A DNA stretch of 64,000 nucleotides from contig JBDRIT010000251.1 in assembly GCA_043815665.1 (NCBI GenBank), forward strand, positions 2,818-66,817. The letters are read 5' to 3'. This DNA is from Pseudomonadota bacterium. GTDB taxonomy: Bacteria > Myxococcota_A > UBA9042 > CAIXZC01. The translations under genes and the position numbers were made by a program. The notes beneath the pieces were generated by a model. The model was given only the letters and a program-made list of their open reading frames with translations, was not told the DNA's origin and ran no database searches. Shown here one piece after another: positions 37,877 through 55,926 of this stretch (the first letter of the stretch is position 1; each line of letters starts with the position of its first letter).

Positions 37877-39322
37877 TTACTGCGGGCAAATGGTCCCGCA
37901 GAGTTGGCACTCCATGACGCAGAGATCGTCCCACCGCTCCAGGCAGCAGTGGGGGTCGGTGGCGCAGACGCATTCCTGGCACGGGCAGTTCCAGCAGTTC
38001 GGGGTGCCGGTCACTTGGCAGCCGTCGCAGGGGGTCACGGCGGGGTGGCAGGTCATCAGTTCATCGCATGTGTCGGAAACGGCGTCGCAGAGGAACACGC
38101 AGAACGGCGACCAGGCCTCCAGGCAGCACGCGGGCTCCGCCGCGCAGACCGCCTCCTCGCACGCACAGCCAGCGCAGCCCGGGGCCTCCCAGCTCACCGC
38201 GCAGGGGTCCGTGGTGGACGGGGCGCAGGTCCCCTCGGGGGTGCAGGCCTCCCCTGCGGGGCAGGTCCCGCAGGTCCCGCCGCAGCCGTCGGGTCCGCAG
38301 GTGGTGACCTGCTCCGGGCCCGGCGAGGCGGTGCAGGCCGGGAAGCAGATCTCCTGGGGCCTGCAGAGGCCCCGCCAGGGATCGGGCAGGAGCGCGCCGT
38401 CGCAGGTCCAGCCCTCGGGGCAGTGGCCCGCGTTGGTGCAGGTGAGGGTGCAGATTCCCCCGTCGTCCTGGGGCAGGCAAACGCCCCCCAGGCAGTCCCC
38501 GTCAGCGCCGCAGGGGAGCCCCGCGTCCGCTGCGCCGGGCAGGCAGGTGGCCCCCGCGTGGCAGCGCTCCCCGGGTCCGCAGGCGCCGCAGGGGCGGTCG
38601 TACTGGTCGGGGCCGCACTCGGGGCGAACACCGTAGGATTGCTCCCCGGCGCCGTAGCTGTTCCCATGGCAGGAAGAATCGGGCTCACAGCCGCTGGCGC
38701 AGTCCGTCGAAAGGATGACACAATTTAAACTCCAGCTCTCCTGGCAACAGGCGGGCCAGAGGGCACAGACACAGGCCTCCACCCCCTCCGGACAACCGGG
38801 GCAGCCCGGCGCGCCGACGGGCGACGGCATGCAGAAGTGGCCCTCCGGGTACCGGCAGAGCCCGTCGGGGGTGCAGGCCGCGTCGGTGGGGCAGGCCCCG
38901 CAGGTGCCGCCGCAGCCGTCGTCGCCGCACATGCGCGTCTTGCAGGCGGGCACGCAGACCGTGACGCAGGCGCCGTCCTCACAGGCCTCCCCCGCGCCGC
39001 AGACGCCGCAGAGGGCCCCGCAGCCGCTCTCGCCGCACTCCCGCTCGCCGCAGAGGGCCTCCTGATCGCAGGCCTCGCACTGCCCTGCGTCGTCGTCGCA
39101 GAGGCTGTAGGCCCCGCAGCTCCCGCAGGAGAGCCCGCACTCCGGGTCCGGGCCGCACTCCCTCCCGGCGCAGTCGGGGACGCAGCCCGGTGCTCCGACG
39201 CAGAGGGCCTGGGGTTGGAAGTCGCACCGGCTGAGGGGGACCTCGGTGCAGGCCGCGATCAGCCCGAAGAGCGCGACGAGGGTCGTCGCAAGGAGCCCGG
39301 ACATCCTTCGGTGAACTCTCAT
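37877..39322 (-). CDS. Cys-rich lipoprotein (481 aa, ~17% Cys) made of CxxCGxDGCGGxCGxC-type modules.
   Basis: MRVHRRMSGLLATTLVALFGLIAAC is a lipoprotein signal. Repeated motifs ECGESGCGALCGVCG and CGDDGCGGTCGACP. The start overlaps the stop of the upstream gene (39324) by a few nt. Confidence 0.75.
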   Translation of the reverse strand: MRVHRRMSGLLATTLVALFGLIAACTEVPLSRCDFQPQALCVGAPGCVPDCAGRECGPDPECGLSCGSCGAYSLCDDDAGQCEACDQEALCGERECGESGCGALCGVCGAGEACEDGACVTVCVPACKTRMCGDDGCGGTCGACPTDAACTPDGLCRYPEGHFCMPSPVGAPGCPGCPEGVEACVCALWPACCQESWSLNCVILSTDCASGCEPDSSCHGNSYGAGEQSYGVRPECGPDQYDRPCGACGPGERCHAGATCLPGAADAGLPCGADGDCLGGVCLPQDDGGICTLTCTNAGHCPEGWTCDGALLPDPWRGLCRPQEICFPACTASPGPEQVTTCGPDGCGGTCGTCPAGEACTPEGTCAPSTTDPCAVSWEAPGCAGCACEEAVCAAEPACCLEAWSPFCVFLCDAVSDTCDELMTCHPAVTPCDGCQVTGTPNCWNCPCQECVCATDPHCCLERWDDLCVMECQLCGTICPQ

Positions 39323-44639: not shown

Positions 44640-46037
44640 ATGATGGATACAACAGTCGTCAAGGTGGGCCGCCCGGTGGCCAAAGGCTCCGGGCGGGATC
44701 TGAACTTCGTCTGCGTGTTCAGCGGGTTGAACGTCGTGGACGCCCGGCCCGTCCTGGTCCGGGACGAGATCACGATGGGTCGGACGATCCTCCCGAACCT
44801 CGGCCTCACCACGCCGGATTCCACCATGAGTCGCCATCACTTCAGACTCCAGCGCAGCGGCGCCGGGGTCGTCATCGAAGATCTCGGGTCGAGCAACGGG
44901 ACCTTCGTGAACCGGCAGGAGATTCACGGCACGTCAAATCTCCACCCCGGGGACGTGATCCGCGCGGGGGAGACCTTGTTCCTCCTCCTGGAGACCCCCC
45001 CGTCTCCTCCTGAAACCCCCCGGGACGACGATTTCGTCACGTGCAACGCCGGCCTGCAGCGCATCCTCGGACAGATCGCACGCGTCGCCGGGTCGGACAT
45101 CAGCGTTCTCCTCCTGGGAGAGACCGGCACGGGGAAGGATGTCCTGGCGCAGCACCTGCATCGCCTGAGCGCGCGGAATGGGCGCTTCGTCCCGGTGAAC
45201 TGTTCGGCGATCCCAGCCACCCTCCTGGAGGCCTCCCTGTTCGGCCATGAGCGAGGGGCCTTCACTGGCGCGGATCGGGCGTCCATCGGGATGTTCCGGA
45301 CCGCCGATCGGGGGACCCTGTTCCTGGACGAGATCGGAGAGATGGAGCCCGGACTTCAGGCCAAGCTCCTCCGAAGCCTCGAGACGCGATCGGTCATCCC
45401 GGTCGGTGCGGCGCGGGAGATCCGGGTCAACGTGCGGATCGTCGCCGCAACGAGCCGGAGTCGTCTGGAGCTGGAGTCCGGTCGCATCCGGGAGGACCTG
45501 CTGGGGCGCCTGGAAGACCTGGTGGTCCAGCTGTCCCCCCTCCGAGAGCGCCGGGAGGACATTCTCTTCTTCGCCGCCAGGGAGATGGGGATCGAGCCGG
45601 GCCAGGCCTTCGGGACCGCGGACGTGGCGGAGGCCCTGCTGCTCTACCCGTGGCCACGGAACGTACGGGAGCTGGTCCGCTCCGTACGCGCCGCGCTCCT
45701 CTTGCACGACGGGTCACCGCCGTTGCGCTGGGAAGACCTGAAGGAGGGGATCCGTCATTTCGGCGGGCTGGCGACGCCGATGCCCGGGGGACGCGCCGGC
45801 GAGTTGCATGCTCCGGTTGACTCGAAGCACCCCTTTGCAACTCCTTTTCGCCGCGATGGAATGGACGAGCTGCGAACAACCACGAAACCCACGGCGCAGC
45901 AGCCGGCCCCATCCCGAGAGACCCTCGAGGCCTTGATTGCCAAATGTGGTGGCAACGTCTCGGCCCTGGCCCGTCAGCTGGGCAAGGATCGGAAGCAGAT
46001 CTACCGCTGGCTCGAGCGCTACGGCCTGAAGGCCTGA
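44640..46037 (+). CDS. Sigma-54-dependent transcriptional activator with N-terminal FHA domain (FHA - AAA+ sigma-54 interaction domain - Fis-type HTH).
   Basis: FHA signature ([10 protein letters not shown]…SRHHFRL…[12 protein letters not shown]). Walker [15 protein letters not shown] motif, ESELFGHE-like [13 protein letters not shown], and a C-terminal HTH (…[23 protein letters not shown]). Confidence 0.9.
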
Positions 46038-46397
46038 TCAACCCTGCAAGAGCGTGGTTTTTACCTTCCAGAGGACCGGCATCAACTTGGCGAGGACCCA
46101 GCCGAGGGCGCGCAGGGCCGGTCCGTCCAGGGGCAGGGAGCGCCCACGGCGGATCGCGTGCACCGCGACGCCGCGCACATCGGAGACCGGGACGGGCGGA
46201 TCTTCCGACGTGCAGCCGTCACCCCGGGTCGTCACGAACCCCTCGCTGACCCGGAGCACGCGGTGCAGGGCGACGTCATCTCCCCGGGGGACCAGGACGA
46301 TCTCGCCGACCCGCGGCAGGCGCCGGGGCAGGGGACGGATCATCACCGGGGTGCCGTCCGGGAGGAAGGGGCGCATGCTCCCACCGCGAGCGATCAT
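46038..46397 (-). CDS. Sec11/SipW-type (S26B, Ser-His) signal-peptidase-like protein, 119 aa. Last gene of the peptide-modification cassette.
   Basis: Box B GGSMRPFLPDG contains the catalytic Ser. Box D GEIVLV…DDVALHRVLRV has His where bacterial type-I signal peptidases have Lys, the same pattern as Sec11 (…PIVHRVLR). ATG 46397 follows immediately after the radical SAM stop. The first 86 codons of the 205-codon ORF are read-through. Confidence 0.65.
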   Translation of the reverse strand: MIARGGSMRPFLPDGTPVMIRPLPRRLPRVGEIVLVPRGDDVALHRVLRVSEGFVTTRGDGCTSEDPPVPVSDVRGVAVHAIRRGRSLPLDGPALRALGWVLAKLMPVLWKVKTTLLQG

Positions 46398-47422
46398 CGG
46401 TCGCCTTCCCCGGAGTCGGGGTCCAGGCGTCGCCAGAGGGCCGTGCGCTGGCAGATTGATGGCGCCGGCCTGGCGGGATCTCCGGTCTCCCGCAGGGACC
46501 GGGCCGGGCACGCGTAGCACCAGGGCCGGTCCGCGCACTCCATGCAGCCCGTGGACGTGCCCCAGGTGAGACTCCGGAGGGGTCGGAGCGACGGAGGGTC
46601 CCGCCACAGGTCGGCGAGGCGCTCGTCCCGCACGTTTCCGAGGGTCTCGGGCCACTCGAGGCAGGGGCGTACGTTGCCGTCGGGGCCGACGTAGAGGGAG
46701 AGCCGCCCGGCGAGGCAGACGGGCTCGTCGGCCCGCACCTCCCTGCGGGGTGGGCGGTCACCGAAGGCAGTCTCCCATTGCTCCTGCCTGGAGGACTCGC
46801 CGACCCAGAGCCCATCGAGGGGGTAGCCCTCGAAGCAGCCGATGTCCTTGAGTTCGTTGATCGCTACGGTGCGGATCCCCTGGGCGAGGAGCCCGCTGCG
46901 GACCGTCGAGAAGTCCTCCTCGAAACCCTGGAGCAGGGTCACCACGGCCTCCACCCGGACCCCCAGCGCCTGCAGACGCAGGATCGTGGCGAGGCTGCGG
47001 TCGAAGGAGCCGGGGAGGCGGGTCACCTCATCGTGGACCAACCGACGGTGGCTGTAGAGGCTCACATGGACCGTGCGCACCCCGAGCTTCGCCAGGGTGT
47101 CGCAGTCCTCGGGCCGGCACAGGGTCCCCGAGGTCTTCACCAGCACCATGAATCCCCGACGCCGGGCCTCCCCGACGATGTCGAGGAAGTCCGGACGGGT
47201 GAAGACCTCCCCGCCGCTGAACAGGAGACTCATCACCCCCATGTCGGCGAGCTGTTCGAGGACATCGACGAGGTCGGCGAGGGACAGCTCCTTGGGCGCG
47301 TCGCCGCCGAGGTAGCAGTGTCGGCACCGCAGGGGGCAGCGCCAGGTCGGGTCGATGTGTGCATGGAACAGACGCCCGTGACGAAGATATCGCTGGTAGA
47401 GCCAGGCTACGTGGTCGGACAC
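46394..47422 (-). CDS. Radical SAM / SPASM-domain peptide-modifying maturase.
   Basis: CxxxCxxC cluster WRCPLRCRHCY near the N-terminus. C-terminal auxiliary-cluster Cys pattern (…VCLAGR…GNVRPCLEW…GCMECADRPWCYACPA). 342 aa. Confidence 0.9.
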   Translation of the reverse strand: MSDHVAWLYQRYLRHGRLFHAHIDPTWRCPLRCRHCYLGGDAPKELSLADLVDVLEQLADMGVMSLLFSGGEVFTRPDFLDIVGEARRRGFMVLVKTSGTLCRPEDCDTLAKLGVRTVHVSLYSHRRLVHDEVTRLPGSFDRSLATILRLQALGVRVEAVVTLLQGFEEDFSTVRSGLLAQGIRTVAINELKDIGCFEGYPLDGLWVGESSRQEQWETAFGDRPPRREVRADEPVCLAGRLSLYVGPDGNVRPCLEWPETLGNVRDERLADLWRDPPSLRPLRSLTWGTSTGCMECADRPWCYACPARSLRETGDPARPAPSICQRTALWRRLDPDSGEGDR

Positions 47423-48222
47423 GTCAACCTCCGGAAGAGCGCCCGATCCAGATCCTTGAGGGAGACGTCCATCATCCGACAGGGGACCTCGGCGACGATC
47501 TTTATGAGGCGGTCCATCAGCAGGGCAGAGAGGGTGGGGGAGCCGGGGAAGAGGACGGCGTTGCGGATCGCCAGGCGGAGGGCTTCGGCGACGGGCAGGG
47601 CGGGTCCCAGGGTGGTCCTCCCGCCTCGACGGAGGAACAGGAGGCCACCCAGGGGGAGGGTCCCCGTCCCCGTAGCGTTGACCCCCCCGGCGCGCCAGAG
47701 GCCGTCGTCACCGGGCACCAGCGTGGTGAGGTCGTCCGTGATCTTCCTGTCGGGGTCGAGCCGGTTGACGACGGTGCTCTTTCCTGTCGCGTGGGGCGCA
47801 GGGAAGGTCCAGGCGCGGCCGCTCTGCGCCGATGTGGACGCGTGGAGGACCACGCCGAGACCCTCCTCCAGCAGGGCGGCGACCCCGGTCGCAGCCAGGG
47901 TCAGGGTCAGCTGGTCCATCATCTCGCCCGGCCGCAGCGAGGGATCCAGTGTCAGTCCACATCCTCCGGAGTCGATGTACGCGACGGCACCTCGCGCCTG
48001 GAACGACAATCGCCCCCGCTCCTCTACGAATCTCGGTTCGCTCGACGCGGGCTCCGAGGGACCGATCACCACGTCGAGGATGCGATGGACGCGGCGCGGC
48101 CACGGGTCGTATCGAAGCGTCTTGGGAGGCGCCGCCGCCCGGACGAGCTTGTCCAGCCGGATGGGATCCAATGCGGGATCGAAGTGGGCTTCGAAGCTGA
48201 CCGGGCCGAAGGCGAGGTTCAT
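47407..48222 (-). CDS. HPr kinase C-terminal-domain-related P-loop protein (HprK-related kinase of RiPP-type cassettes).
   Basis: GVVLHASTSAQSGRAWTFPAPHATGKSTVVNRL matches the HprK C-domain core (…LHAS…G…GxSGxGKST). The start is set at ATG 48222 (MNLAFGPVSFEAHF…). The upstream 53 codons of the long ORF overlap the precursor ORF in another frame. Confidence 0.65.
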   Translation of the reverse strand: MNLAFGPVSFEAHFDPALDPIRLDKLVRAAAPPKTLRYDPWPRRVHRILDVVIGPSEPASSEPRFVEERGRLSFQARGAVAYIDSGGCGLTLDPSLRPGEMMDQLTLTLAATGVAALLEEGLGVVLHASTSAQSGRAWTFPAPHATGKSTVVNRLDPDRKITDDLTTLVPGDDGLWRAGGVNATGTGTLPLGGLLFLRRGGRTTLGPALPVAEALRLAIRNAVLFPGSPTLSALLMDRLIKIVAEVPCRMMDVSLKDLDRALFRRLTCPTT

Positions 48223-48265: not shown

Positions 48266-48415
48266 TCAGCCAGTGGGGGTCTGCCAGCCGCAGCCCCCGC
48301 CGCTGAGCGCCTGGAACAAGCATCCCGACTGGAGGACGTTCTTCTCGAAGCCCTCGCGGACCTCGACCACCGGCTGCACATAGGCCTTCTTCATCTGCTT
48401 GGCGTCATTCATCAT
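48266..48415 (-). CDS. Putative RiPP precursor peptide (49 aa): MMNDAKQMKKAYVQPVVEVREGFEKNVLQSGCLFQALSGGGCGWQTPTG.
   Basis: A perfect AGGAGG lies 8 nt upstream of ATGATG (minus strand). The peptide has a charged leader-like N-half and a Gly/Cys/Ser/Thr-containing C-half. It sits directly upstream of the kinase-like, rSAM/SPASM and peptidase genes on the same strand, with a 43-nt spacer to the next gene. Confidence 0.55.
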   Translation of the reverse strand: MMNDAKQMKKAYVQPVVEVREGFEKNVLQSGCLFQALSGGGCGWQTPTG

Positions 48416-48471
48416 GGAGTGACCTCCTACGTGGGGACAGTGTATCGAACCATCCCCGGGTGTCAATCGAC

Positions 48472-51400
48472 TCAGCGGACCAGCACCAGGTAACCTGCCC
48501 CGTTGGTCCCGACCATCATGTCCGGGTGTCCGTCGCCGGTGAAGTCACTGAGCGGGGCGATACGGAGGCCGCCGAAGTCCAGGTTGCCGGGCTCGAAGGG
48601 ATCCTCGATGGTCAGATCCAGCTCCTGGAAGCTGCCCATACCGTGGATCCCCGGGAGGTTGTGCCGGACATAGACGGAGCCGAAGAAGGAGAACCCGTTG
48701 AAGTCGCCGTACACCAGGTCTCCCGAGCACTCGGGCTGGATCGGTGAGTCGTCGAAGTTTCCGAGGAGCCCGATGGACTGGAAGTTGCCCTGGATGATGG
48801 TCCCCGCAGAGCCGACCCAGGCGCTCCCCGCAGCCGTGACCGCGCCGATCGTCAAGGTGGTCCCGATGGCTCCGCCGATCGCGTCCCCGCGGAAGAGATA
48901 GATCGACAGGCCGTTGGAGAGGGCCGCCTGCAAGTGGGCGCCGATCACCTCGGGGATCCCGTCACAGTCCAGGTCCTCGCCGAGGATCTGTCCGAAGAAC
49001 CAGTCCGCCGCCGCCAGGCTGCCCTGGGGGCGCAGCCGCACCGCTGCGGCGTCCTCGCTCCCGCTCCCGTCCAGGGTCGACGAGAGAGAGATCGCAGCGG
49101 TGCTGACCATCGCCCGTCCCCGGACGACGAAGGCTGCGGATGGCCCCGTGTACTGGCTGATGACGATGTCGTCGTACTGGGTCCCCTCGCCGTCCCCGTC
49201 CGGGAGGACGTTGCCGACCCCGCTGGCGCTGATGCCGAACCAGTCGTTGGCGGTGCCGCCGACCTGGCTGATCTTGAGGATCAGGGAGGCCGCCTGGTCC
49301 CCGGCGTCCTCGAGGTCGATCTCCAGGGGCGCGACGCCCCAGTTGGCGTTGCCGGGCACGACGTAGACCGTGTTCTTCTGGGGCGCGGCGACGACGATGT
49401 CGTCGATGGGGATCTGACCGTTCAGATCGCCATTGAAGTTGCCGGCGCCGGCGATGGGGACGAAGTTGACCCAGAGGAGCCCGGTCGTCCCGAAGACCAG
49501 GGAGACCTCCGGCGAGGTGCTGAGCACCCCGGAGGCCTTTCCGAGGTAGATGCGCACCCGCGTCCTGTCGGTGCCGTCGGCGTCCTTGTAGGAGACCACG
49601 GCGACGTCGTCGTAGCCGTCGCCGTTCACGTCCCCCACACCCGCCAGATCCAGGCCGACCTGGCTCTGGACGCCGTCGAAGAGACATTGCGTGAGCGCAT
49701 CCTGCGAGAGATCGATGGACGCGGGCGGATCCTCCCGCCCCTGCATGAGGCAGAAGCCGTTCTCGCCGTAAGCGCCGAGGAGCAGGTCTTCGAGGTCGTC
49801 GCCGTTGATGTCACCGGCGCGCACCGGGGTTGCGTCCATGTTGCCGTCGGTGTAGGAGCCGCGGAGCACCTCGGTGTATTGGAGGCGCACGGCGTTGGTG
49901 GATTTGGAGTTCGCCGTGCTGAACGGGGAGACGTTGCCCACATCGTCGTAGGCCAGCACTCCGAAGTAGAACATCGACGAGGGATCGACGCCCGTGACGA
50001 ATCGGCACGGGTCCGCTGGCGCACGGTTGTCGGGACCGGCGACGACAAAGGCTTCGAGCGCCCCGGGGGTCGCCGGCGCCGGTGGCTCAGCGTTCTGGGT
50101 CAGACCCGAGAGGTCGCAGGCCTGGTCGAAGTTCACGGGGGTGATGGGCGCGGTGGAGAAACGGACCTCGTAGGAGGCCGCAGCACCTCCGGCGTTGCCG
50201 TCGTCGCCGACGGCTGACCACTTGAGGGTCACCGCGGGTCGCCGCGGGTTGACGTCCGCCGCGGGGTTGATGGTCTGGAGGACCACGCCGGCTGGCGGGG
50301 TCACGTCCACGTTGAGGGTCAGGGTCGTCGCTCCGTTGTTCCCGGCCGCATCGGTGGCGGTCGCGGTGAGGGTCCGCTGAGCGGCCTCCCCCAGGGTGAC
50401 GTCGGAGGGCCAGGAGTAGGCGAAGGGCGCTCCGGTCATGGACGTCTCGCCGAGGGTTGTCGGCGGGCCACCCGTGTCGGTGGTCAGAGTCACCTCGCCG
50501 CCAGTGAGGTTGTCGCCGGTGACGTTCACCGCGACGGTGAGCTGGCAGCCACCCGCACCGGGGTTCTTGTCGTTGGCCTGGTTGAGGATGCTCGTGGAGG
50601 GCGTCGGTGCAGTGAAGGCAACCACGGGGAGCGTGAGGTCCACGCTGTAGGACCAGTCACCCGTGGTGTCCCCGGTCTCTGCACCGCCGACGAGGAGTCG
50701 GGCCTCGAAGGCGACGCTGTCCCCGTCATCCAGGGTCAGCGGGAACGCCACGGAGCTGCCTGCGGTGACTGCGAGGGTGGCCTCCACCTGACCGTCCTTG
50801 TACAGCCGCACCTGATCCACCGCACCACAGCCCGTGGTGAAGGTCGCCGTGAGGTCGGTCGCGATGGTCGCACAGCTCTGGCCGGGCGGGTCGCAGTCGG
50901 CCGTGTTGTACCAGCCGGAGGCGGGCGCGTCGATGAAGCTCACCTGGCACGCGGTGAAGGTGAGGGTCAGGTTCGCCGAGAGGACGGAGGTGTTTCCGAC
51001 CCCGTCGACGATCACGACCTGCACCTGTCTGTACTCGATCTCCGCGTCGACCGTCCCGACGGTGATGAGCTCGCTGACGGTGACGAGGGACTCGTCGGGC
51101 AGGGTCCCCGTCTTGGCGGGGACGCCACCGGCGCACCCGGTGAAGGATGCGTCCGGGCATTTGGCCAGCTTGATCGTCCAGCCCGCTGCGCCGGACGCCT
51201 CGAACTCCGTCAGGAACTGGAAGCCCGGGATCGTCAGCGACGCGTCGTCGCCATCGGTGAAGCCGACCGCTGGTGCAGGCTGGTTGAGGGTCGCCGATGG
51301 CGGGCTGCGGTCCACGAAGATGTACTCGGGTGACGTGACGGCAAGCGCCTCGTTGTTCGCGTCGTCCCGGACCCAGCCGCGGAGCTGGTAGGCCCCGTCC

Positions 51401-54400
51401 TGGGCGAGGATGCCGCTGAAGGTGACCTGCCCCTGTGCGTTCGGTGCCCCGGAAGAGAGCTCGACCCAGGTGCCCCCCACGTTCCGCTCCAGGTGGACGT
51501 CGTTCCCGTCCGTGCCGCTGGCCACGAGGTGTGTGTCCGGCGAGGAGCCCTGGATCAGGGGCGAGCTGGCCGGCGCTGTGAACGAGAGCACCGGCACCGC
51601 CGTGTCGACGAAGACCTCGATCCCGTATGGCGTGCTCACGTTGCCGACCTGGTCGATGGCCAGGATCTGGAGGGTGTTCAGCCCTTCGAAGAGTGCCAGC
51701 GCCAGATCCACCTGGGAGCCGGCCATGCTCACCTCCTCGATGAGGATCCCGTTGTCCCAGACCTTCATGGTGCCGGTCTCTGCGCTGGTGAGGGTGACCT
51801 CTGCGATGTACGTCGACGGCGCGGCGTCGACCTCCGCCTGGTTGAGGGTCCCGAGGGGCGGCAGGGTGTCGGATGGGAAGGCCACACCCGAGATCACCGG
51901 GGCGACGATGTCCAGCCAGTAGTGGCGGTCCTGCTTCGTGTAGTTCGGCGTGTTGGTGGAGAGGACCCAGGTCCCCGTGTTGGAGAGGGCCTCGGCGATC
52001 ATTCGATGGTACCCGGACGGGAGCGCCGCGACTTCGGCCGCCGTGAGCTGCACGAACACGCTGCCGCCGCCGTGGTTCACGGACTTGACCACCCGGAACT
52101 TCACCGGGCCGTCAGTGGTCTCACAGAGAGCTGCACCCTGGGCGGCGAGGGTCGGGTGCGCGGAGCAGATCCGCAGGGGCGCCGTCTCCGACGAGAAGAG
52201 TTCCGCCGGCTGGGACTTGGCGTCGACTTTATGGGCGCCGTTCTTCCAGGGGAACATGCACTTCTTCGACCCGTCGACCGGCTTGCAGATGCCCGTGGCG
52301 GAGCAGTCGCCGTTGTCCACGCAGAGATCGAAGGAGACGTAGTCGGAGCCCTCGAGCCTCACCTGAGTGGTCGTGAGGAAGAACTGGACTGCGAAGATCA
52401 AGCTGTCCGTGTTGCCCGCAGCGTCGGAGACCGACACCACGATCTGGTGCACACCCTCCCCGAAAGTCATCTGCGGGAACACGACCTCTCCGGTCTGCCC
52501 GTCGGGGATCCCCTCGCCAAGGATCACCGAGGTCGCCTCGGGAGCGCCGATCTCCGGCGTGATCAGCAGGTCCACAGACTGGCCCGCCTCGAGGCCCTGA
52601 ACCCCCACGATGAGGGTGTACTGGTAGCCCTCGGCAGCGGGGTCCTCATCGAGGCTGGCCGGCATCAACTCAAAGTCCGGCTGCATGAATCCGGTGATCA
52701 CCGGTGCCGTGCGGTCGACGATGACGGTCACGGCGGTCGAGTCTGCAGACTGTCCGGCGAGGTCCTCCACCGAAGCGCCGAGGGTGCACGTGGCGCCGTC
52801 CGCGAGCGCTACGCCTGGCCAGGACACCGCATCTCCAGCGACGGCTCCGGGGATCGTCGTCGGGGCGCCACAGTCCACCGTCAGCGACGCCGCGCTGCCG
52901 TTCTCTGCGTTGGTGGTCACCGCGGTGACCACCAGGCTGCAACCGGGGAGGCCGGCCGCACAGAGGTTCGAGGCCAGGTTGAGGATCGCACCATCCTCGG
53001 GCGCGGTCAGGGCGATGGTCGGGGTGCCGTCCTTGAGGAGCACCGAGCGGGTGCCGGAGTACCCGACCTCCGCGTGGGAGGGATGGATCGCAGAAGCCTG
53101 GATCTTCACGGGGACGCCAGGGGTGAGGCCGTCGAGGGAGAACTGGTAGAGGCCGCCCGGGCCCGCCGTCTGATTCCCGAACTCCGCACCGTCCACGAAG
53201 AGGGTGACCGTCGCGTCCTCGAGGGGGATCGCACCGTCGGAGGAGGTCACGGACAGGGTGACCGGGACCGGCTGGCTCGAGACCACGATGTTCTTGGTGG
53301 GGCTGGTGAAGACGACCTTGGGTGCGTCCACGGCGAAGGAGAAGGTTGTCTGGGCCGGCACCGTGACGTGCCCCGCGGCGTCCGTCACCGTGAGGTCGAT
53401 CGTGTTGGTGCCGGGGGTGATGGTGAGGCCGTCGAAGTTCACTTCACCCGTGTCGGCGTCCGGGAAGAGACAGAGCGCCGCCTCGCCGTTGAAGGAGAGG
53501 CAGACCTCAACGAGATCCGGGTGGGCCTCGCCGGTGACCATGGCGTTGACGGCCACCTGGTTGCCGAGCTGATCCGCGTCGGTGTCCGGACAACTCGTCG
53601 GATCACAGATCGCGCCGTCCTGGGGCGTCAGGACGAAGATCTGTGGCCACAAGGCGTCGAGCTCCAGGGACACCTCGGTGAGGCTGCCCGGGTTCGCCGA
53701 GGCGGCGTTGCCGAAGCCGTCCATCGCGGCCGCAGTGAGGGTGTAGATCCCTTCGTCGAGCAGGGAGAGGTCCTCCATGACGCTGAACCCGAGCAGGGTC
53801 GCCTGGACCTCCGTGGTCCACGCCTCGGCGCCGCCCTGGGTGAGGGACAGGGTCACGATCTGGCCTTTCAGGAAGAGAGTCGCCCCCACGACCGAGAAGG
53901 CCTCCGCCGGGACGATCTCGCCGTCTTCTGGGTTGGTGAGGATCAGGAGGGGCGCGGGGAGGCCCACCGTGAGGGAGATCTCGGGAGACACCACCGGCGG
54001 GGCGTTGTTGTCCCTGGCGCGGCAGATGACCTGGCTCCCCACCAGCGCGGTGTTGATCTGGACATCCATGGTGTACTGCCCGTCCGGGGCCGCCGCGGAC
54101 ACGGTGAACATCCCCCCGTCGCGCCAGAGGGACCCGGACTGGTTCTTCCGGTACTGGACCTGGAGGACCGTCCCTGCGTCGGCGAGGGGCGCGTACACCA
54201 GGAAGGAGGTGTCCATGACGGACAGGGTCCCCGGCACGGTGTCAGCCGCCGCCAGGAGGGTGGCGCCGGACAGGGGTGAGAGGATCATCACGTTGGCCGG
54301 GGCCAGGAGCGAAACGACGTTGACGGACGCGGTCGCCAGGGCTCCGCAGCACGCGTCGGATGCGGCGACGGCGATCTCGTGCAGACCATCCGAGGCCAGG

Positions 54401-55548
54401 GTGATGGTGTCGACGGTGAAGACGCCGCCAGGCGCGGAGGTCACTGCGACCTCCACCCCGTCGATGGTGACCGTGATCTCGTCATCCGGGCCGAGGCCGG
54501 TGGCCAGGCCGTCAAGGACGAGCTGGATGCCGTTCTCCGGAACACCGTCCAGATCGTCGCCCAGGTTGACCGTGGTCGGGGACGGGGACGTGATCTCCAG
54601 GGTCGGGGGCACCGTGTCCAGGGTGTAGTCGAGCGCCGTGGACTCCGTCCGGGACTCGTCGGCGCTGTCGGCGACGTAGGCCGTGACGTTGGTCGCCTGG
54701 CAGTCGAGGTCGTCCACGCTGGCGGCGACGGTGATCTGGAGCTCCGCTTCACCGCCGACCAGGTTCACCTGCTCCGAGGCGCCCGTGTCCGTCTCCAGCC
54801 ATGCCGTGTCGCAGTCGGTTCCGCCGTTGGTGACCGTGAAGGTCGCCTGGAACCCGTCCATGTCCGGATCCCCGTCGACTGACAGACAGCTCTGGTTGCT
54901 CGGGGCCAGGGTTACGCCGCAGCTCCCCGTGTCCACGCAGACGGTCTTCGTGACGGTGATCAGATCCTCGGCAGAGATCACCATCTCGTGGCAATCGGGG
55001 TCCGTCGCGTTGGTGAGATGGACCATCGAGAAGCTGAAGATGTCGCCGGGGAGGTCCTGGGTGGCCACGGTGTTGCCGTCGATGTCCAGGGAGATCGTCG
55101 TCCCTGCCGGGACGTTCAGGGTCGTCACCTGGATGTCGACTTCGAGGGCCGGGGTCAGCGGGTAGAGGTCGTCCGAGGTTTCTTCGTTCTTGACGAGGTC
55201 CACCTGGTCGACGTCGGTCCCGACGCAGCCCGCGACGGGGGTCATGAGGCAGAAGGACAGCTCCGCCGGTGGGGGAGGCGGGACGTCCACGTCTGGCTCC
55301 ACCTCGTCGGGGACATCGGGGACGTCGGGGACGTCAGGGACGTCGGGGACATCGGAGACGTCCGGGACGTCCCCGGTGAACTCGTCCAGGACGTCCGTGA
55401 GGTCGAAGTCCACGACATCAGCGTCCCCCTCGAGATCAACCGAACTGTCCGGGACGTCCGTGATCGGGAGGGGCGGTGAGCTGTCCGGGCAGCCGATGAC
55501 GAGGGTCAGCATCATCGCCAGAACCGCTGCGATCGTGACTCGATTCAT
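48472..55548 (-). CDS. Giant surface lipoprotein (2358 aa). Order of parts: lipoprotein signal, (DVP)n acidic linker, many Ig-like/beta-sandwich segments, C-terminal FG-GAP/VCBS-type beta-propeller repeats.
   Basis: MNRVTIAAVLAMMLTLVIGC is a lipoprotein signal with GGAGG 8 nt upstream. FG-GAP-like motifs GDINGDDLEDLLLGAY, GDVNGDGYDDVAVVSY and FTGDGHPDMMVG lie near the C-terminus. Continuous 7-kb ORF. Confidence 0.8.
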   Translation of the reverse strand: MNRVTIAAVLAMMLTLVIGCPDSSPPLPITDVPDSSVDLEGDADVVDFDLTDVLDEFTGDVPDVSDVPDVPDVPDVPDVPDEVEPDVDVPPPPPAELSFCLMTPVAGCVGTDVDQVDLVKNEETSDDLYPLTPALEVDIQVTTLNVPAGTTISLDIDGNTVATQDLPGDIFSFSMVHLTNATDPDCHEMVISAEDLITVTKTVCVDTGSCGVTLAPSNQSCLSVDGDPDMDGFQATFTVTNGGTDCDTAWLETDTGASEQVNLVGGEAELQITVAASVDDLDCQATNVTAYVADSADESRTESTALDYTLDTVPPTLEITSPSPTTVNLGDDLDGVPENGIQLVLDGLATGLGPDDEITVTIDGVEVAVTSAPGGVFTVDTITLASDGLHEIAVAASDACCGALATASVNVVSLLAPANVMILSPLSGATLLAAADTVPGTLSVMDTSFLVYAPLADAGTVLQVQYRKNQSGSLWRDGGMFTVSAAAPDGQYTMDVQINTALVGSQVICRARDNNAPPVVSPEISLTVGLPAPLLILTNPEDGEIVPAEAFSVVGATLFLKGQIVTLSLTQGGAEAWTTEVQATLLGFSVMEDLSLLDEGIYTLTAAAMDGFGNAASANPGSLTEVSLELDALWPQIFVLTPQDGAICDPTSCPDTDADQLGNQVAVNAMVTGEAHPDLVEVCLSFNGEAALCLFPDADTGEVNFDGLTITPGTNTIDLTVTDAAGHVTVPAQTTFSFAVDAPKVVFTSPTKNIVVSSQPVPVTLSVTSSDGAIPLEDATVTLFVDGAEFGNQTAGPGGLYQFSLDGLTPGVPVKIQASAIHPSHAEVGYSGTRSVLLKDGTPTIALTAPEDGAILNLASNLCAAGLPGCSLVVTAVTTNAENGSAASLTVDCGAPTTIPGAVAGDAVSWPGVALADGATCTLGASVEDLAGQSADSTAVTVIVDRTAPVITGFMQPDFELMPASLDEDPAAEGYQYTLIVGVQGLEAGQSVDLLITPEIGAPEATSVILGEGIPDGQTGEVVFPQMTFGEGVHQIVVSVSDAAGNTDSLIFAVQFFLTTTQVRLEGSDYVSFDLCVDNGDCSATGICKPVDGSKKCMFPWKNGAHKVDAKSQPAELFSSETAPLRICSAHPTLAAQGAALCETTDGPVKFRVVKSVNHGGGSVFVQLTAAEVAALPSGYHRMIAEALSNTGTWVLSTNTPNYTKQDRHYWLDIVAPVISGVAFPSDTLPPLGTLNQAEVDAAPSTYIAEVTLTSAETGTMKVWDNGILIEEVSMAGSQVDLALALFEGLNTLQILAIDQVGNVSTPYGIEVFVDTAVPVLSFTAPASSPLIQGSSPDTHLVASGTDGNDVHLERNVGGTWVELSSGAPNAQGQVTFSGILAQDGAYQLRGWVRDDANNEALAVTSPEYIFVDRSPPSATLNQPAPAVGFTDGDDASLTIPGFQFLTEFEASGAAGWTIKLAKCPDASFTGCAGGVPAKTGTLPDESLVTVSELITVGTVDAEIEYRQVQVVIVDGVGNTSVLSANLTLTFTACQVSFIDAPASGWYNTADCDPPGQSCATIATDLTATFTTGCGAVDQVRLYKDGQVEATLAVTAGSSVAFPLTLDDGDSVAFEARLLVGGAETGDTTGDWSYSVDLTLPVVAFTAPTPSTSILNQANDKNPGAGGCQLTVAVNVTGDNLTGGEVTLTTDTGGPPTTLGETSMTGAPFAYSWPSDVTLGEAAQRTLTATATDAAGNNGATTLTLNVDVTPPAGVVLQTINPAADVNPRRPAVTLKWSAVGDDGNAGGAAASYEVRFSTAPITPVNFDQACDLSGLTQNAEPPAPATPGALEAFVVAGPDNRAPADPCRFVTGVDPSSMFYFGVLAYDDVGNVSPFSTANSKSTNAVRLQYTEVLRGSYTDGNMDATPVRAGDINGDDLEDLLLGAYGENGFCLMQGREDPPASIDLSQDALTQCLFDGVQSQVGLDLAGVGDVNGDGYDDVAVVSYKDADGTDRTRVRIYLGKASGVLSTSPEVSLVFGTTGLLWVNFVPIAGAGNFNGDLNGQIPIDDIVVAAPQKNTVYVVPGNANWGVAPLEIDLEDAGDQAASLILKISQVGGTANDWFGISASGVGNVLPDGDGEGTQYDDIVISQYTGPSAAFVVRGRAMVSTAAISLSSTLDGSGSEDAAAVRLRPQGSLAAADWFFGQILGEDLDCDGIPEVIGAHLQAALSNGLSIYLFRGDAIGGAIGTTLTIGAVTAAGSAWVGSAGTIIQGNFQSIGLLGNFDDSPIQPECSGDLVYGDFNGFSFFGSVYVRHNLPGIHGMGSFQELDLTIEDPFEPGNLDFGGLRIAPLSDFTGDGHPDMMVGTNGAGYLVLVR
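55300..55380 (-). repeat. Short tandem 9-bp repeat (GGACGTCGG / GGACATCGG on the plus strand) encoding a (DVP)n / DVSDVPDVPDVPDVPDVPDE acidic linker.
   Basis: Direct reading: gacatcggg gacgtcggg gacgtcagg gacgtcggg gacatcgga gacgtccgg gacgtcc. Confidence 0.8.
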
Positions 55549-55647: not shown

Positions 55648-55926
55648 TCATTTGACATTCGCCAAGAGGACTCCGCGCGCAGTCAGAGTTCCCAGGAAAT
55701 GATCGACATCCGAAGCGGCGCGTTCATGGGACACCTCGTAGCCCTCGTCGAGCCTGACCACGAGGTCGCGCGCCGTCTCGGCGCCGGCCTCCACGGCCTC
55801 CCAGAGAAAGACCGCCGTCTCGTTCCCAAGGACGATGAGGTCCCCCTCGGGCGCCAGGATGAAGATCTCTTCACCGACGCGTCGGACGCCGACGTTTTCG
55901 GCCTTATGGAATGTGGTCAATGGCAT
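55648..55926 (-). CDS. PqqD-family protein (RiPP recognition element / peptide chaperone), 92 aa.
   Basis: …VGEEIFILAPEGDLIVLGNETAVFLWEAVEAGAETARDLVVRLDEGYEVSHERAASDVDHFLGTLTARGVLL… matches the PqqD pattern (x-then-LN-ETAxxIWxLxDGxxTxxEIxxxLxEEYxV…DVxxFLxxLxxxGLL). Confidence 0.7.
   Translation of the reverse strand: MPLTTFHKAENVGVRRVGEEIFILAPEGDLIVLGNETAVFLWEAVEAGAETARDLVVRLDEGYEVSHERAASDVDHFLGTLTARGVLLANVK

What the first reader, a model, noticed from the sequence alone, without database searches (positions are those of the whole stretch)
46038..46397. Eukaryote/archaea-type (Ser-His) signal-peptidase-like protein at the end of the cassette
The 119-aa protein keeps S26 box B (GGSMRPFLPDG) and box D (GEIVLV…ALHRVLRV). 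The general base position carries His, as in Sec11/SPC18 and Bacillus SipW, rather than the Lys of bacterial LepB-type enzymes. It also lacks the N-terminal TM anchor. A soluble, minimal ER-type signal peptidase translationally coupled to an rSAM maturase looks like a dedicated leader peptidase, not a general secretion enzyme.
Basis: partly seen in the sequence, partly recalled or inferred. Interest (0 to 1): 0.6.

Follow-up and report, generated by a model that had tools for sequence, protein, structure and literature searches.

The report
Signal-peptidase-like leader peptidase of a peptide cassette
This small gene encodes an anchor-less, Ser-His-Asp relative of the eukaryotic/archaeal signal peptidase that most likely trims the leader off a 49-residue modified peptide made by its own operon, an enzyme role first demonstrated in May 2026 (LppS) and seen here in a new, radical-SAM-linked form.

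Summary
Window 46038-46397 (-) encodes a conserved 119-aa protein whose ATG overlaps the stop codon of a radical SAM/SPASM gene (ATGA).

Profile alignment puts Ser7, His45 and Asp66 on the catalytic Ser56/His96/Asp122 of human SEC11A. They also fall on Ser29/His68/Asp93 of LppS, which were shown by mutation to be essential. Ser, His and both Asp are invariant or nearly so in 266 relatives. The protein has only 6 residues before the Ser and no transmembrane segment.

The interpretation as a dedicated leader peptidase is supported, by homology and context only. LppS (Popov et al., Nat Commun, May 2026) is a SipW-like peptidase that removes the leader of a ribosomal peptide in Bacillota. Its precursors share the window peptide's KKxYxxP...FE[T/K] leader.

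The cassette here differs from LppS systems:
- It comes from an uncultured Myxococcales-like lineage.
- It reads PqqD, 2358-aa lipoprotein, precursor, ScmC/HprK-like P-loop protein, rSAM/SPASM, peptidase.
- The peptidase lacks the N-terminal helix by which LppS docks on its recognition protein.
- No NTP-transferase or exporter is present.

A related five-gene cassette recurs in three of four sampled distant relatives.

Verdict: a real gene and a new variant of a recently described kind. Cleavage was not tested.

The parts
46038..46397 (-). SpI-like (Sec11/SipW/LppS-type) peptidase gene, 119 aa. Catalytic codons: Ser7 46377-46379, His45 46263-46265, Asp60 46218-46220, Asp66 46200-46202. C-terminal amphipathic helix at residues ~93-118.
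   Evidence: sequence; conservation; alignment to SEC11A and LppS catalytic residues; AF2 pLDDT 81, S24/S26 fold; no TM; start codon
46394..47422 (-). Radical SAM/SPASM maturase, 342 aa. The CxxxCxxC motif begins near residue 29, so there is no N-terminal recognition domain. Its stop codon overlaps the peptidase start (ATGA).
   Evidence: PF04055 80.7 bits, PF13186 36 bits; below cut-off of every named rSAM family; 35% identical to the rSAM of the L014 cassette
47407..48222 (-). ScmC-like / HprK-like P-loop protein, 271 aa (Walker-A-like APHATGKST). Overlaps the rSAM start by 16 nt.
   Evidence: TIGR04249 16 bits, HprK_rel_A 12.5 bits, both far below cut-off; orthologues carry PF27840 ScmC, weak; orthologues 271 aa; invariant H127, G147, K148, T150, D164; 27-28% identical to L014/L015 ScmC
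48266..48415 (-). Precursor peptide, 49 aa: MMNDAKQMKKAYVQPVVEVREGFEK|NVLQSGCLFQALSGGGCGWQTPTG. The leader carries a KKxYxxP recognition motif and FEK. The core has two conserved Cys and a conserved CGWxTP[ST]G end. The cleavage site marked | is predicted by homology only.
   Evidence: 49-aa gene called in every orthologous locus; alignment with orthologues, with L014/L015/L018 precursors and with LPP precursors; LPP motif YxxPxVLxHQxIxFETxxS, cleavage after FET
48439..48466 (-). Sigma-70-type promoter-like site (TTGACA-16-TACACT), followed by an AGGAGG ribosome-binding site in front of the precursor gene.
   Evidence: the only site in 3.1 kb; 0.2 expected; TTGAC..-spacer-TACACT and the AGGAGG kept in L001, L004, L006, L007, L010
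48472..55548 (-). Giant predicted lipoprotein, 2358 aa from MNRVTIAAVLAMMLTLVIGC, with faint Ig-like/FG-GAP hits. It lies between the PqqD gene and the precursor gene. Whether it belongs functionally to the system is unknown.
   Evidence: ORF; orthologues of 2343-2345 aa in the same position; 71% identical to the L017 orthologue
55648..55926 (-). PqqD-family peptide-recognition protein (RRE), 92 aa.
   Evidence: RRE HMM, E 5e-11, the only hit in the window; PF05402 45.8 bits, cut-off 23.4; orthologue in the same position in L017, 64% identical
44640..46037 (+). Convergent FHA + sigma-54 activator gene that abuts the peptidase stop codon. A conserved neighbour with no demonstrated link to the cassette.
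   Evidence: PF00158 186.7 bits, PF00498 55 bits; conserved position; no sigma-54 promoter consensus in the window

Best explanation
The gene encodes a cytoplasm-facing, anchor-less member of the Sec11/SipW branch of the signal-peptidase fold. It most likely uses a Ser7-His45-Asp66 triad to remove the ~25-residue leader from the 49-aa precursor encoded three genes upstream.

Proposed order of events:
1. The precursor is transcribed from its own sigma-70-type promoter.
2. Its KKxYxxP leader is bound by the PqqD-family recognition protein.
3. The core, with two conserved Cys, is modified by the rSAM/SPASM enzyme and possibly by the ScmC/HprK-like P-loop protein.
4. The peptidase then cuts, most likely after Phe-Glu-Lys25. 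This corresponds to the Phe-Glu-Thr site cut by LppS. The alternative is after Ser30.

Shown here: homology, fold, invariance and alignment of the catalytic residues, gene order and its conservation, and homology of the precursor leader with LPP precursors.

Inferred: catalytic activity, the substrate, the site, the order of steps, and the chemistry of the rSAM and P-loop enzymes.
For: Catalytic residues and fold:
- Ser7, His45 and Asp66 align with SEC11A Ser56/His96/Asp122.
- They also align with LppS Ser29/His68/Asp93. The S29A, H68A and D93A mutants of LppS lose leader cleavage (PMC13381572).
- These residues are invariant or nearly so in 266 relatives.
- The AF2 model (pLDDT 81) has the LexA/signal-peptidase fold.

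Placement in the family:
- The clade profile scores the recognition-protein-associated peptidases of Popov et al. highest: SSN cluster 3 at 54-59 bits and LppS-type cluster 1 at 24-36 bits.
- It scores SEC11A at 19.5 bits, true SipW at 7-10 bits and LexA at 5.7 bits.

Genomic context:
- The order precursor, ScmC-like, rSAM/SPASM, peptidase, with overlapping or closely spaced genes, is conserved in all orthologous loci long enough to show it.
- A PqqD gene is conserved upstream.
- Distant relatives (32-36% identical) sit in the cassette precursor, peptidase, ScmC, PqqD, rSAM/SPASM in 3 of 4 sampled contexts.
- All four enzyme/recognition components are homologous to the window's.

Precursor:
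- Precursors of the window clade, of these cassettes and of LPP systems share KKxYxxP...FE[T/K].
Against: - No experiment bears on this protein.
- It fails the curated cut-offs of Pfam S24/S26 and TIGR02228.
- By structure alone the nearest solved chains are LexA C-domains, not SEC11, and only at E ~5e-3.
- It lacks the N-terminal helix through which LppS contacts its recognition protein, and mutations in that helix reduce cleavage. Substrate presentation must therefore differ or be absent.
- The homology-predicted P1 residue is Lys, whereas S26 enzymes normally take small residues at P1 (established knowledge of the family; LppS has Thr).
- The PqqD gene is separated from the rest of the cassette by a 7-kb gene.
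- One of four sampled relatives (L016) has no cassette nearby.
Confidence: 0.75

Rival explanations
1. It is a dedicated secretory signal peptidase in the manner of B. subtilis SipW (tapA-sipW-tasA). On this view it removes the signal peptide of the large secreted proteins encoded next to it, not the leader of the small peptide.
For: - It has the same Ser-His branch of the fold as SipW.
- A giant secreted protein lies within the cassette here.
- Homologous 594-829-aa secreted proteins lie next to the distant cassettes.
Against: - No TM anchor is present, so the active site cannot be held on the outer face of the membrane. True SipW sequences have hydrophobic segments at both ends and score only 7-10 bits.
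- The giant protein has a lipoprotein-type signal (LVIGC), which by established knowledge is cut by signal peptidase II.
- The family travels with PqqD and rSAM genes and a conserved small precursor.
Confidence: 0.05
2. It is a LexA/UmuD/CI-type S24 self-cleaving domain that has lost its DNA-binding part, and acts in regulation or as a degenerate remnant.
For: - Pfam's only hit is Peptidase_S24.
- The closest solved folds by Foldseek are LexA C-terminal domains.
- Its size is similar to a LexA C-domain.
Against: - The general-base position is an invariant His, not Lys.
- The Sec11-type box E (GD.....D) is invariant.
- Sequence profiles prefer SEC11 (E 1.5e-6) to LexA (E 0.96), and LexA scores 5.7 bits.
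- No upstream Ala-Gly/Cys-Gly self-cleavage segment exists, because only 6 residues precede the Ser.
Confidence: 0.03
3. It is an active peptidase of the cassette, but its job is not leader removal at the FEK site. It might trim the C-terminus, cut a second site, degrade unmodified precursor (proofreading), or act as an immunity or turnover enzyme. Alternatively it mainly serves as a scaffold for the rSAM enzyme.
For: - The N-terminal docking helix used by LppS is missing.
- The predicted P1 residue is Lys.
- Translational coupling with the rSAM gene suggests a stoichiometric partnership.
Against: - The full catalytic triad is invariant, which argues against a pure scaffold.
- Its closest characterised homologue removes the leader.
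- The leader/core boundary motif FE[T/K] is conserved between the systems.
Confidence: 0.12

Closest known systems
LppS, the SpI-like (SipW-homologous, archaeal-type) leader peptidase of linear polyphosphorylated peptide (LPP) clusters of Bacillota (Popov et al., Nat Commun 2026, PMC13381572)
   Same: - The same branch of the fold, with no TM anchor.
- Ser/His/Asp aligned to the mutationally proven S29/H68/D93.
- The alignment extends through the post-catalytic hairpin into the C-terminal helix (hhalign 98.6%, 113 columns).
- Both are encoded with a discrete PqqD-type recognition protein, an HprK-like P-loop protein and a precursor carrying YxxP...FE[T/K].
   Different: - Only 27% identical.
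- Lacks the ~25-residue N-terminal helix that binds the recognition protein/leader sheet in LppS.
- The cassette has an rSAM/SPASM enzyme, which that paper never mentions.
- No NTP-transferase or MsbA-type exporter is present.
- The P-loop protein is of the ScmC type.
- Predicted P1 is Lys instead of Thr.
- The host is a Myxococcales-like uncultured lineage, not Bacillota.
- The spacing between YxxP and FE[T/K] is two residues shorter.
Unstudied non-Bacillota peptidases of SSN cluster 3 in the same paper's dataset (Acidobacteriota, Chloroflexota, candidate phyla), and the cassettes found here in L014, L015 and L018/L019
   Same: - These are the closest sequence relatives outside the clade (54-59 bits; 32-36% identity).
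- The same set of partners occurs: precursor, ScmC, PqqD, rSAM/SPASM.
   Different: - Those proteins keep the N-terminal helix (median 33 residues before the Ser).
- Their gene order is precursor, peptidase, ScmC, PqqD, rSAM.
- In the window clade the peptidase is last, and PqqD is displaced upstream of a 7-kb gene.
SEC11A/SEC11C (eukaryotic signal peptidase complex), archaeal Sec11 and B. subtilis SipW (MEROPS S26B; NCBIfam TIGR02228)
   Same: - The Ser-His-Asp catalytic arrangement.
- Boxes B (SM.P), C (G[DE]I), D (HR) and E (GD.....D).
- TIGR02228 is the best NCBIfam hit for this protein and all tested relatives, some above cut-off.
   Different: - No TM anchor and no complex subunits.
- About 60 residues shorter.
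- The substrate is inferred to be a cytoplasmic peptide leader rather than a Sec signal peptide.
- The score is far below the family cut-off (20.6 against 51.85).
SynChlorMet (SCM) cassette of NCBIfam (ScmC TIGR04249, ScmD TIGR04248, ScmE/ScmF TIGR04250/04251)
   Same: It is a neighbourhood of a ScmC-like protein, a PqqD-family protein and an rSAM/SPASM enzyme.
   Different: - All components score far below the SCM cut-offs: ScmC 16-52 bits against 125, ScmD 38.9 against 100, ScmE 84-106 against 400.
- There is one rSAM gene, not two.
- From my memory of the family descriptions, no peptidase is part of the SCM definition, and no NCBIfam model for one matched.
SodX, the nickel superoxide dismutase maturation protease (TIGR02754)
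   Same: - A minimal, anchor-less member of the same fold, dedicated to one cytoplasmic substrate's N-terminal extension (established knowledge).
- A weak secondary hit (15.6 bits).
   Different: - Far below cut-off (63.25).
- A different context.
- I did not test SodX's catalytic residues here.

Membership tests
S26B signal peptidase I (Sec11 / SipW / archaeal type) | LexA/signal-peptidase beta fold | tested here: met
   AF2 model with pLDDT 81. Foldseek against the PDB returns LexA C-domains, SipA and SpsB at probability 1.00 and E ~5e-3.
S26B signal peptidase I (Sec11 / SipW / archaeal type) | Ser nucleophile in box B (SM.P) and His, not Lys, as general base in box D (HR) | tested here: met
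   Ser7 and His45 align with SEC11A Ser56 and His96. Ser is present in 258/258 and His in 266/266 relatives.
S26B signal peptidase I (Sec11 / SipW / archaeal type) | Box E acidic residues (GDNN..DD in SEC11A; Asp122 is the third triad member) | tested here: met
   Asp60 and Asp66 align with Asp116 and Asp122. They are conserved in 266/266 and 265/266 relatives.
S26B signal peptidase I (Sec11 / SipW / archaeal type) | N-terminal TM anchor that places the active site on the trans side of the membrane | tested here: not met
   Only 6 residues precede the Ser. The maximum 19-residue hydropathy is 1.2, and it lies at the C-terminus.
S26B signal peptidase I (Sec11 / SipW / archaeal type) | Passes the curated family thresholds (TIGR02228; Pfam S24/S26) | tested here: not met
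   TIGR02228 gives 20.6 bits against a cut-off of 51.85. PF00717 gives 17.3 bits against 23.3. There is no PF10502 hit.
LppS-type SpI-like leader peptidases of ribosomal peptide clusters | Homology to LppS, with the triad aligned to S29/H68/D93 | tested here: met
   hhalign probability 98.6%, E 7.6e-16, 113 columns. BLASTP gives 27% identity and E 5e-6.
LppS-type SpI-like leader peptidases of ribosomal peptide clusters | N-terminal alpha-1 helix that contacts the recognition protein and leader | tested here: not met
   The window clade starts 6 residues before the Ser. Relatives have a median of 33 residues and LppS has 28. The upstream frame has stop codons in L010.
LppS-type SpI-like leader peptidases of ribosomal peptide clusters | Encoded with a discrete PqqD-type recognition protein | tested here: met
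   PqqD lies at 55648-55926 (PF05402 45.8 bits) and is conserved in L017. It is separated from the peptidase by about 9 kb.
LppS-type SpI-like leader peptidases of ribosomal peptide clusters | HprK-like kinase in the cluster | tested here: inconclusive
   The ScmC-like protein keeps a GKST P-loop. It matches HprK-related models only weakly: 12.5 bits here and 28-30 bits for the L014 homologue. The structure model was too poor to judge.
LppS-type SpI-like leader peptidases of ribosomal peptide clusters | Precursor with YxxP...FET leader, cut after FET | tested here: inconclusive
   The leader has KKAYVQP...GFEK, with Lys for Thr and spacing two residues shorter. The L014/L015/L018 precursors have VFET. 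Cleavage itself is not testable here.
LppS-type SpI-like leader peptidases of ribosomal peptide clusters | NTP-transferase (LppN) and MsbA-like exporter (LppD) in the core cluster | tested here: not met
   None was seen between 44.6 and 60.3 kb of the window or in the orthologous loci.
LppS-type SpI-like leader peptidases of ribosomal peptide clusters | Leader-cleaving activity dependent on Ser/His/Asp | not testable with these tools
   This needs expression and mass spectrometry.
S24 LexA/UmuD/CI self-cleaving peptidases | Ser-Lys dyad | tested here: not met
   An invariant His occupies the Lys column.
S24 LexA/UmuD/CI self-cleaving peptidases | Self-cleavage site in a segment N-terminal to the catalytic domain | tested here: not met
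   No such segment exists, since only 6 residues precede the Ser.
SynChlorMet (SCM) cassette | ScmC, ScmD, ScmE and ScmF above the NCBIfam cut-offs | tested here: not met
   ScmC scores 16 bits against 125, ScmE 84.2 against 400 and ScmF 60.6 against 400. The related cassettes are also below cut-off.

The most novel reading that the evidence does not exclude
The cassette, with its relatives in Acidobacteriota-like and other genomes, may define a separate and uncharacterised class of ribosomal peptides. An LPP-like leader would be kept, but the two-Cys core would be cross-linked by an rSAM/SPASM enzyme and perhaps phosphorylated by a ScmC-type P-loop protein. The leader would be removed by a signal-peptidase-fold enzyme. 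In this clade that enzyme has lost its recognition-protein docking helix and would cut after a Lys, a P1 residue not known for this fold. The product may be functionally tied to the large secreted proteins that accompany the cassette in every lineage sampled.
Probability: 0.3. Interest if true: 0.6.

Novelty: new variant of a known kind. Interest (0 to 1): 0.45.

Why it matters
Until May 2026 no signal-peptidase-fold enzyme was known in ribosomal-peptide maturation. A 2023 review of leader proteases does not mention the fold at all.

The one characterised case, LppS, is confined to Bacillota and to phosphorylated linear peptides. This locus and its relatives suggest that the same enzyme type serves rSAM/SPASM-based pathways in other phyla. 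The family is large: 4,704 representative clusters at E<=1e-10. It is poorly captured by curated models and is sometimes annotated without its catalytic Ser.

The helix-less form offers a natural test of how such peptidases find their substrate without the docking element used by LppS. Practically, the peptidase profile could serve as a genome-mining handle for this cassette type.

Tried and rejected
1. Co-loss hypothesis. I supposed that the clade had lost both the recognition protein and the peptidase's docking helix. This was rejected: an RRE HMM found a PqqD gene at 55648-55926, and it is conserved in L017. The helix loss stands; the RRE loss does not.

2. Structure of the ScmC-like protein. 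The AF2 model had pLDDT 56, with the P-loop half below 50. The Foldseek hits were meaningless. A profile search of PDB sequences gave only P-loop noise.

4. Search for related loci in species genomes. A3 found only the same clade (an uncultured Myxococcales MAG) and one weak hit, L013, which did not reach E 1e-3 with the family HMM.

5. Sigma-54 promoter consensus. None occurs in the window, so no link to the adjacent sigma-54 activator could be made.

6. Literature searches for SynChlorMet, for HPr kinase+PqqD+SPASM, and for S26+radical SAM+RiPP found nothing relevant.

7. A longer ORF (46038-46655, 205 aa) was rejected as the gene. Its extra part overlaps the rSAM gene in another frame, is not conserved, and is interrupted in L010.
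Full report
THE OBJECT

On the minus strand, 46038-46397 encodes a 119-aa protein. Its ATG overlaps the stop codon of the preceding radical SAM/SPASM gene (ATGA at 46394-46397). Gene callers place the same 4-nt overlap in orthologous loci L001, L004, L006, L007 and L010.

A longer in-frame ORF exists (205 aa). Its extra part overlaps the rSAM gene in another frame, is not conserved, and carries stop codons in L010. NCBI's own annotation of this very protein (P0001, 112 aa, 'S24/S26 family peptidase') starts at Met8 and so drops the Ser. The N-terminus MIARG[GAD]SM is invariant in twelve orthologues, so the 119-aa reading is preferred.

IS IT REAL AND WHAT FAMILY

Fifteen close orthologues share 62-86% identity. 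All come from marine-type metagenomes, and one comes from a MAG titled uncultured Myxococcales.

The curated models barely see the protein. Pfam Peptidase_S24 gives 17.3 bits (cut-off 23.3) and TIGR02228 'signal peptidase I, archaeal type' gives 20.6 bits (cut-off 51.85).

A profile of the family is much more informative:
- Against all PDB sequences the best hits are human SEC11C and SEC11A (E 1.5e-6 and 2e-6). They are followed by bacterial SpsB (5.6e-3) and, far behind, LexA (0.96).
- In that alignment, GSM-Ser7 falls on Ser56, HRV-His45 on His96, Asp60 on Asp116 and Asp66 on Asp122. These are the SEC11A catalytic triad plus the second box E aspartate.
- An exhaustive search of 1.84 billion representatives gave 28,075 hits at E<=1e-3 and 4,704 at E<=1e-10, but only 2 at E<=1e-30. 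The window protein therefore belongs to a narrow clade inside a very large family.
- In 266 relatives aligned to the family HMM, Ser is present in 258/258 that reach the column, His in 266/266, Arg46 in 266/266, Asp60 in 266/266 and Asp66 in 265/266.

The AF2 model (pLDDT 81) is a small beta-barrel followed by a long C-terminal helix. Foldseek matches it to LexA C-domains, SipA and SpsB, that is, the LexA/signal-peptidase fold.

NO ANCHOR

Six residues precede the nucleophile. The most hydrophobic 19-residue window (mean 1.2) is in the C-terminal helix, ALRALGWVLAKLMPVLWKV, which is amphipathic. Relatives carry a median of 33 residues before the Ser. These residues form a polar or amphipathic helix plus strand rather than a TM segment. 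True SipW sequences have hydrophobic segments at both ends.

THE KEY PRECEDENT

A literature search found Popov et al., Nat Commun, May 2026 (PMC13381572). The authors describe 'linear polyphosphorylated peptide' clusters of Bacillota. The core genes are:
- a discrete recognition protein (LppB, PqqD-like);
- an HprK-like kinase (LppK);
- an NTP-transferase;
- an MsbA-like exporter.

Their findings on LppS are:
- Deleting lppS leaves the precursor uncut.
- S29A, H68A and D93A abolish cleavage.
- The leader motif is YxxPxVLxHQxIxFETxxS, with the cut after Phe-Glu-Thr.

They state that such peptidases had not been described before in these pathways. A 2023 review of leader proteases indeed never mentions signal peptidase, S26 or S24.

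COMPARISON WITH LppS

I took the LppS sequence from their Supplementary Data 1.
- The family profile aligns to LppS with hhalign probability 98.6% (E 7.6e-16) over 113 columns, through the catalytic core, the R.GR hairpin and into the C-terminal helix.
- The window protein alone gives 27% identity and E 5e-6.
- Ser7, His45 and Asp66 fall on S29, H68 and D93.

A profile of the window clade ranks the groups of their dataset as follows:

| Group | Score (bits) |
|---|---|
| Unstudied non-Bacillota SSN cluster 3 | 54-59 |
| Chondromyces singleton cluster | 50 |
| LppS-type cluster 1 | 24-36 |
| SEC11A | 19.5 |
| SipW | 7-10 |
| LexA | 5.7 |

The SEC11A one agrees with the PDB alignment.

THE CASSETTE

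On the minus strand, upstream to downstream:
- PqqD-family recognition protein, 55648-55926. PF05402 gives 45.8 bits, and it was the only hit of an RRE HMM in the window.
- A 2358-aa predicted lipoprotein, 48472-55548, with signal ...LVIGC and faint Ig-like/FG-GAP hits.
- A sigma-70-type promoter-like site (TTGACA-16-TACACT) and AGGAGG. Both are conserved in orthologues.
- The 49-aa precursor, 48266-48415.
- A 271-aa ScmC/HprK-like P-loop protein, 47407-48222.
- The rSAM/SPASM enzyme, 46394-47422.
- The peptidase.

The same six genes in the same order occur in L017. The last four or five genes occur in every orthologous locus long enough to show them. A convergent FHA/sigma-54 activator abuts the peptidase gene. 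I found no sigma-54 promoter.

THE WIDER CASSETTE

Of four distant relatives whose contigs I could read, three sit in the cassette precursor (56-58 aa), peptidase (154-158 aa), ScmC (270-291 aa), PqqD, rSAM/SPASM (363-372 aa). These are L014, L015 and L018/L019. In L015 the PqqD gene was mis-called on the other strand. The fourth relative, L016, has no such neighbours.

The window's components are homologous to those of L014/L015:
- peptidase, 32-36% identical;
- rSAM, 32-35% over full length;
- ScmC, 27-28% over the P-loop half.

The PqqD link is detectable only through profiles or through the L017 orthologue (19.5% identity to L014's PqqD, E 4e-4).

All components score far below the cut-offs of the curated SynChlorMet cassette families. 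This is therefore a relative of that cassette, not a member.

THE PRECURSOR

- Window clade: KKAYxxPxxEVxEGFEK-NVL[QA]SGC-(9)-CGWxTP[ST]G.
- Distant cassettes: KKPYQKPEFR[FY]E[KR]VFET-[RM]AL[TAS]CGK-(7)-C....
- LPP examples from the paper: KKAYIAPTVLKHQQIVFET-KPSKPHPC..C and others.

The KKxYxxP recognition motif and the FE[T/K] boundary are shared, and many cores have two Cys.

By homology I predict cleavage after Lys25 (FEK|NVL), which would give a 24-residue core. This is an inference. A Lys at P1 is unusual for this fold. An alternative site after Ser30 (VLQS|GC) fits the classical small-residue rule.

MECHANISM PROPOSED

See Best explanation. The homology, the residues and the context are shown. 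The activity, substrate, site, order of steps and the chemistry of the rSAM and P-loop enzymes are inferred.

WHAT IS NEW RELATIVE TO LppS

1. The cassette is built around an rSAM/SPASM enzyme and a ScmC-type protein, without NTP-transferase or exporter.
2. It occurs outside Bacillota.
3. The peptidase lacks the docking helix, although a PqqD gene is kept. I first thought PqqD had been lost too, and disproved that.
4. A giant secreted-protein gene is inserted between the PqqD and precursor genes. Homologous 594-829-aa secreted proteins lie beside all three distant cassettes.
5. The predicted P1 residue is Lys.

VERDICT

The enzyme type is no longer unknown, so I rate this a new variant of a known kind, of moderate interest.

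Noticed in passing
window 55648-55926 (-); L017 559-837: A PqqD-family recognition protein gene belongs to the system but lies about 7 kb from the precursor gene, separated from it by the giant lipoprotein gene. In the distant cassettes PqqD sits between ScmC and the rSAM gene.
   Followed up: yes
window 48472-55548 (-); L014 5298-7787; L015 10959-12794; L018 12862-14646: Large secreted proteins accompany the cassette in every lineage sampled. Here it is a 2358-aa lipoprotein lying inside the cassette. In the three distant cassettes it is a set of mutually homologous 594-829-aa proteins (31-37% identical) with no Pfam domain, which end in C[A]VKLTQ[SA][GN]L[QN]. The window's giant protein shows no BLASTP similarity to them. 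Any functional link to the peptide is unknown.
   Followed up: partly
window 46377-46397 (-); protein P0001: The public NCBI annotation of this gene starts at Met8 (112 aa) and therefore omits the catalytic Ser7. Several other family members in the databases also start at that Met. For P0014 the cause is the end of the contig, and for others it is probably the start-codon choice.
   Followed up: yes
proteins P0021, P0034, P0038, P0026, P0027: Family members occur as fusions. Some have the peptidase (sometimes in tandem) followed by a GNAT acetyltransferase. Others have an NTP_transf_5 nucleotidyltransferase followed by the peptidase. The nucleotidyltransferase is the domain type of LppN in LPP clusters.
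   Followed up: partly
L014 184-687, 2566-3732: L014 carries a second peptidase of the same family (HMM E 3e-37), followed by a 49-aa ORF. It lies about 7 kb upstream of the cassette, near an IS element, an NTP_transf_5 gene and a Wzy_C gene.
   Followed up: no
window 55951-60303 (-) and 37877-39322 (-): There are two very Cys-rich predicted secreted proteins (1450 aa and 481 aa) with repeated C..C..DDGCGG.CG.C motifs. The larger one has two PPC (pre-peptidase C-terminal) domains. It lies directly upstream of the PqqD gene, here and in L017.
   Followed up: no
window 44640-46037 (+): An FHA + sigma-54 activator gene converges on the peptidase gene with no gap, and overlaps it by 11 nt in orthologues. 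No TGGCAC-N5-TTGC promoter occurs anywhere in the 64-kb window. The precursor instead has a conserved sigma-70-type promoter-like site.
   Followed up: partly
L015 9004-9618 (+) vs 9280-9552 (-): In L015 the stored gene call puts a 90-aa ORF on the minus strand where the plus strand encodes a clear PqqD homologue (RRE HMM E 9e-35).
   Followed up: yes
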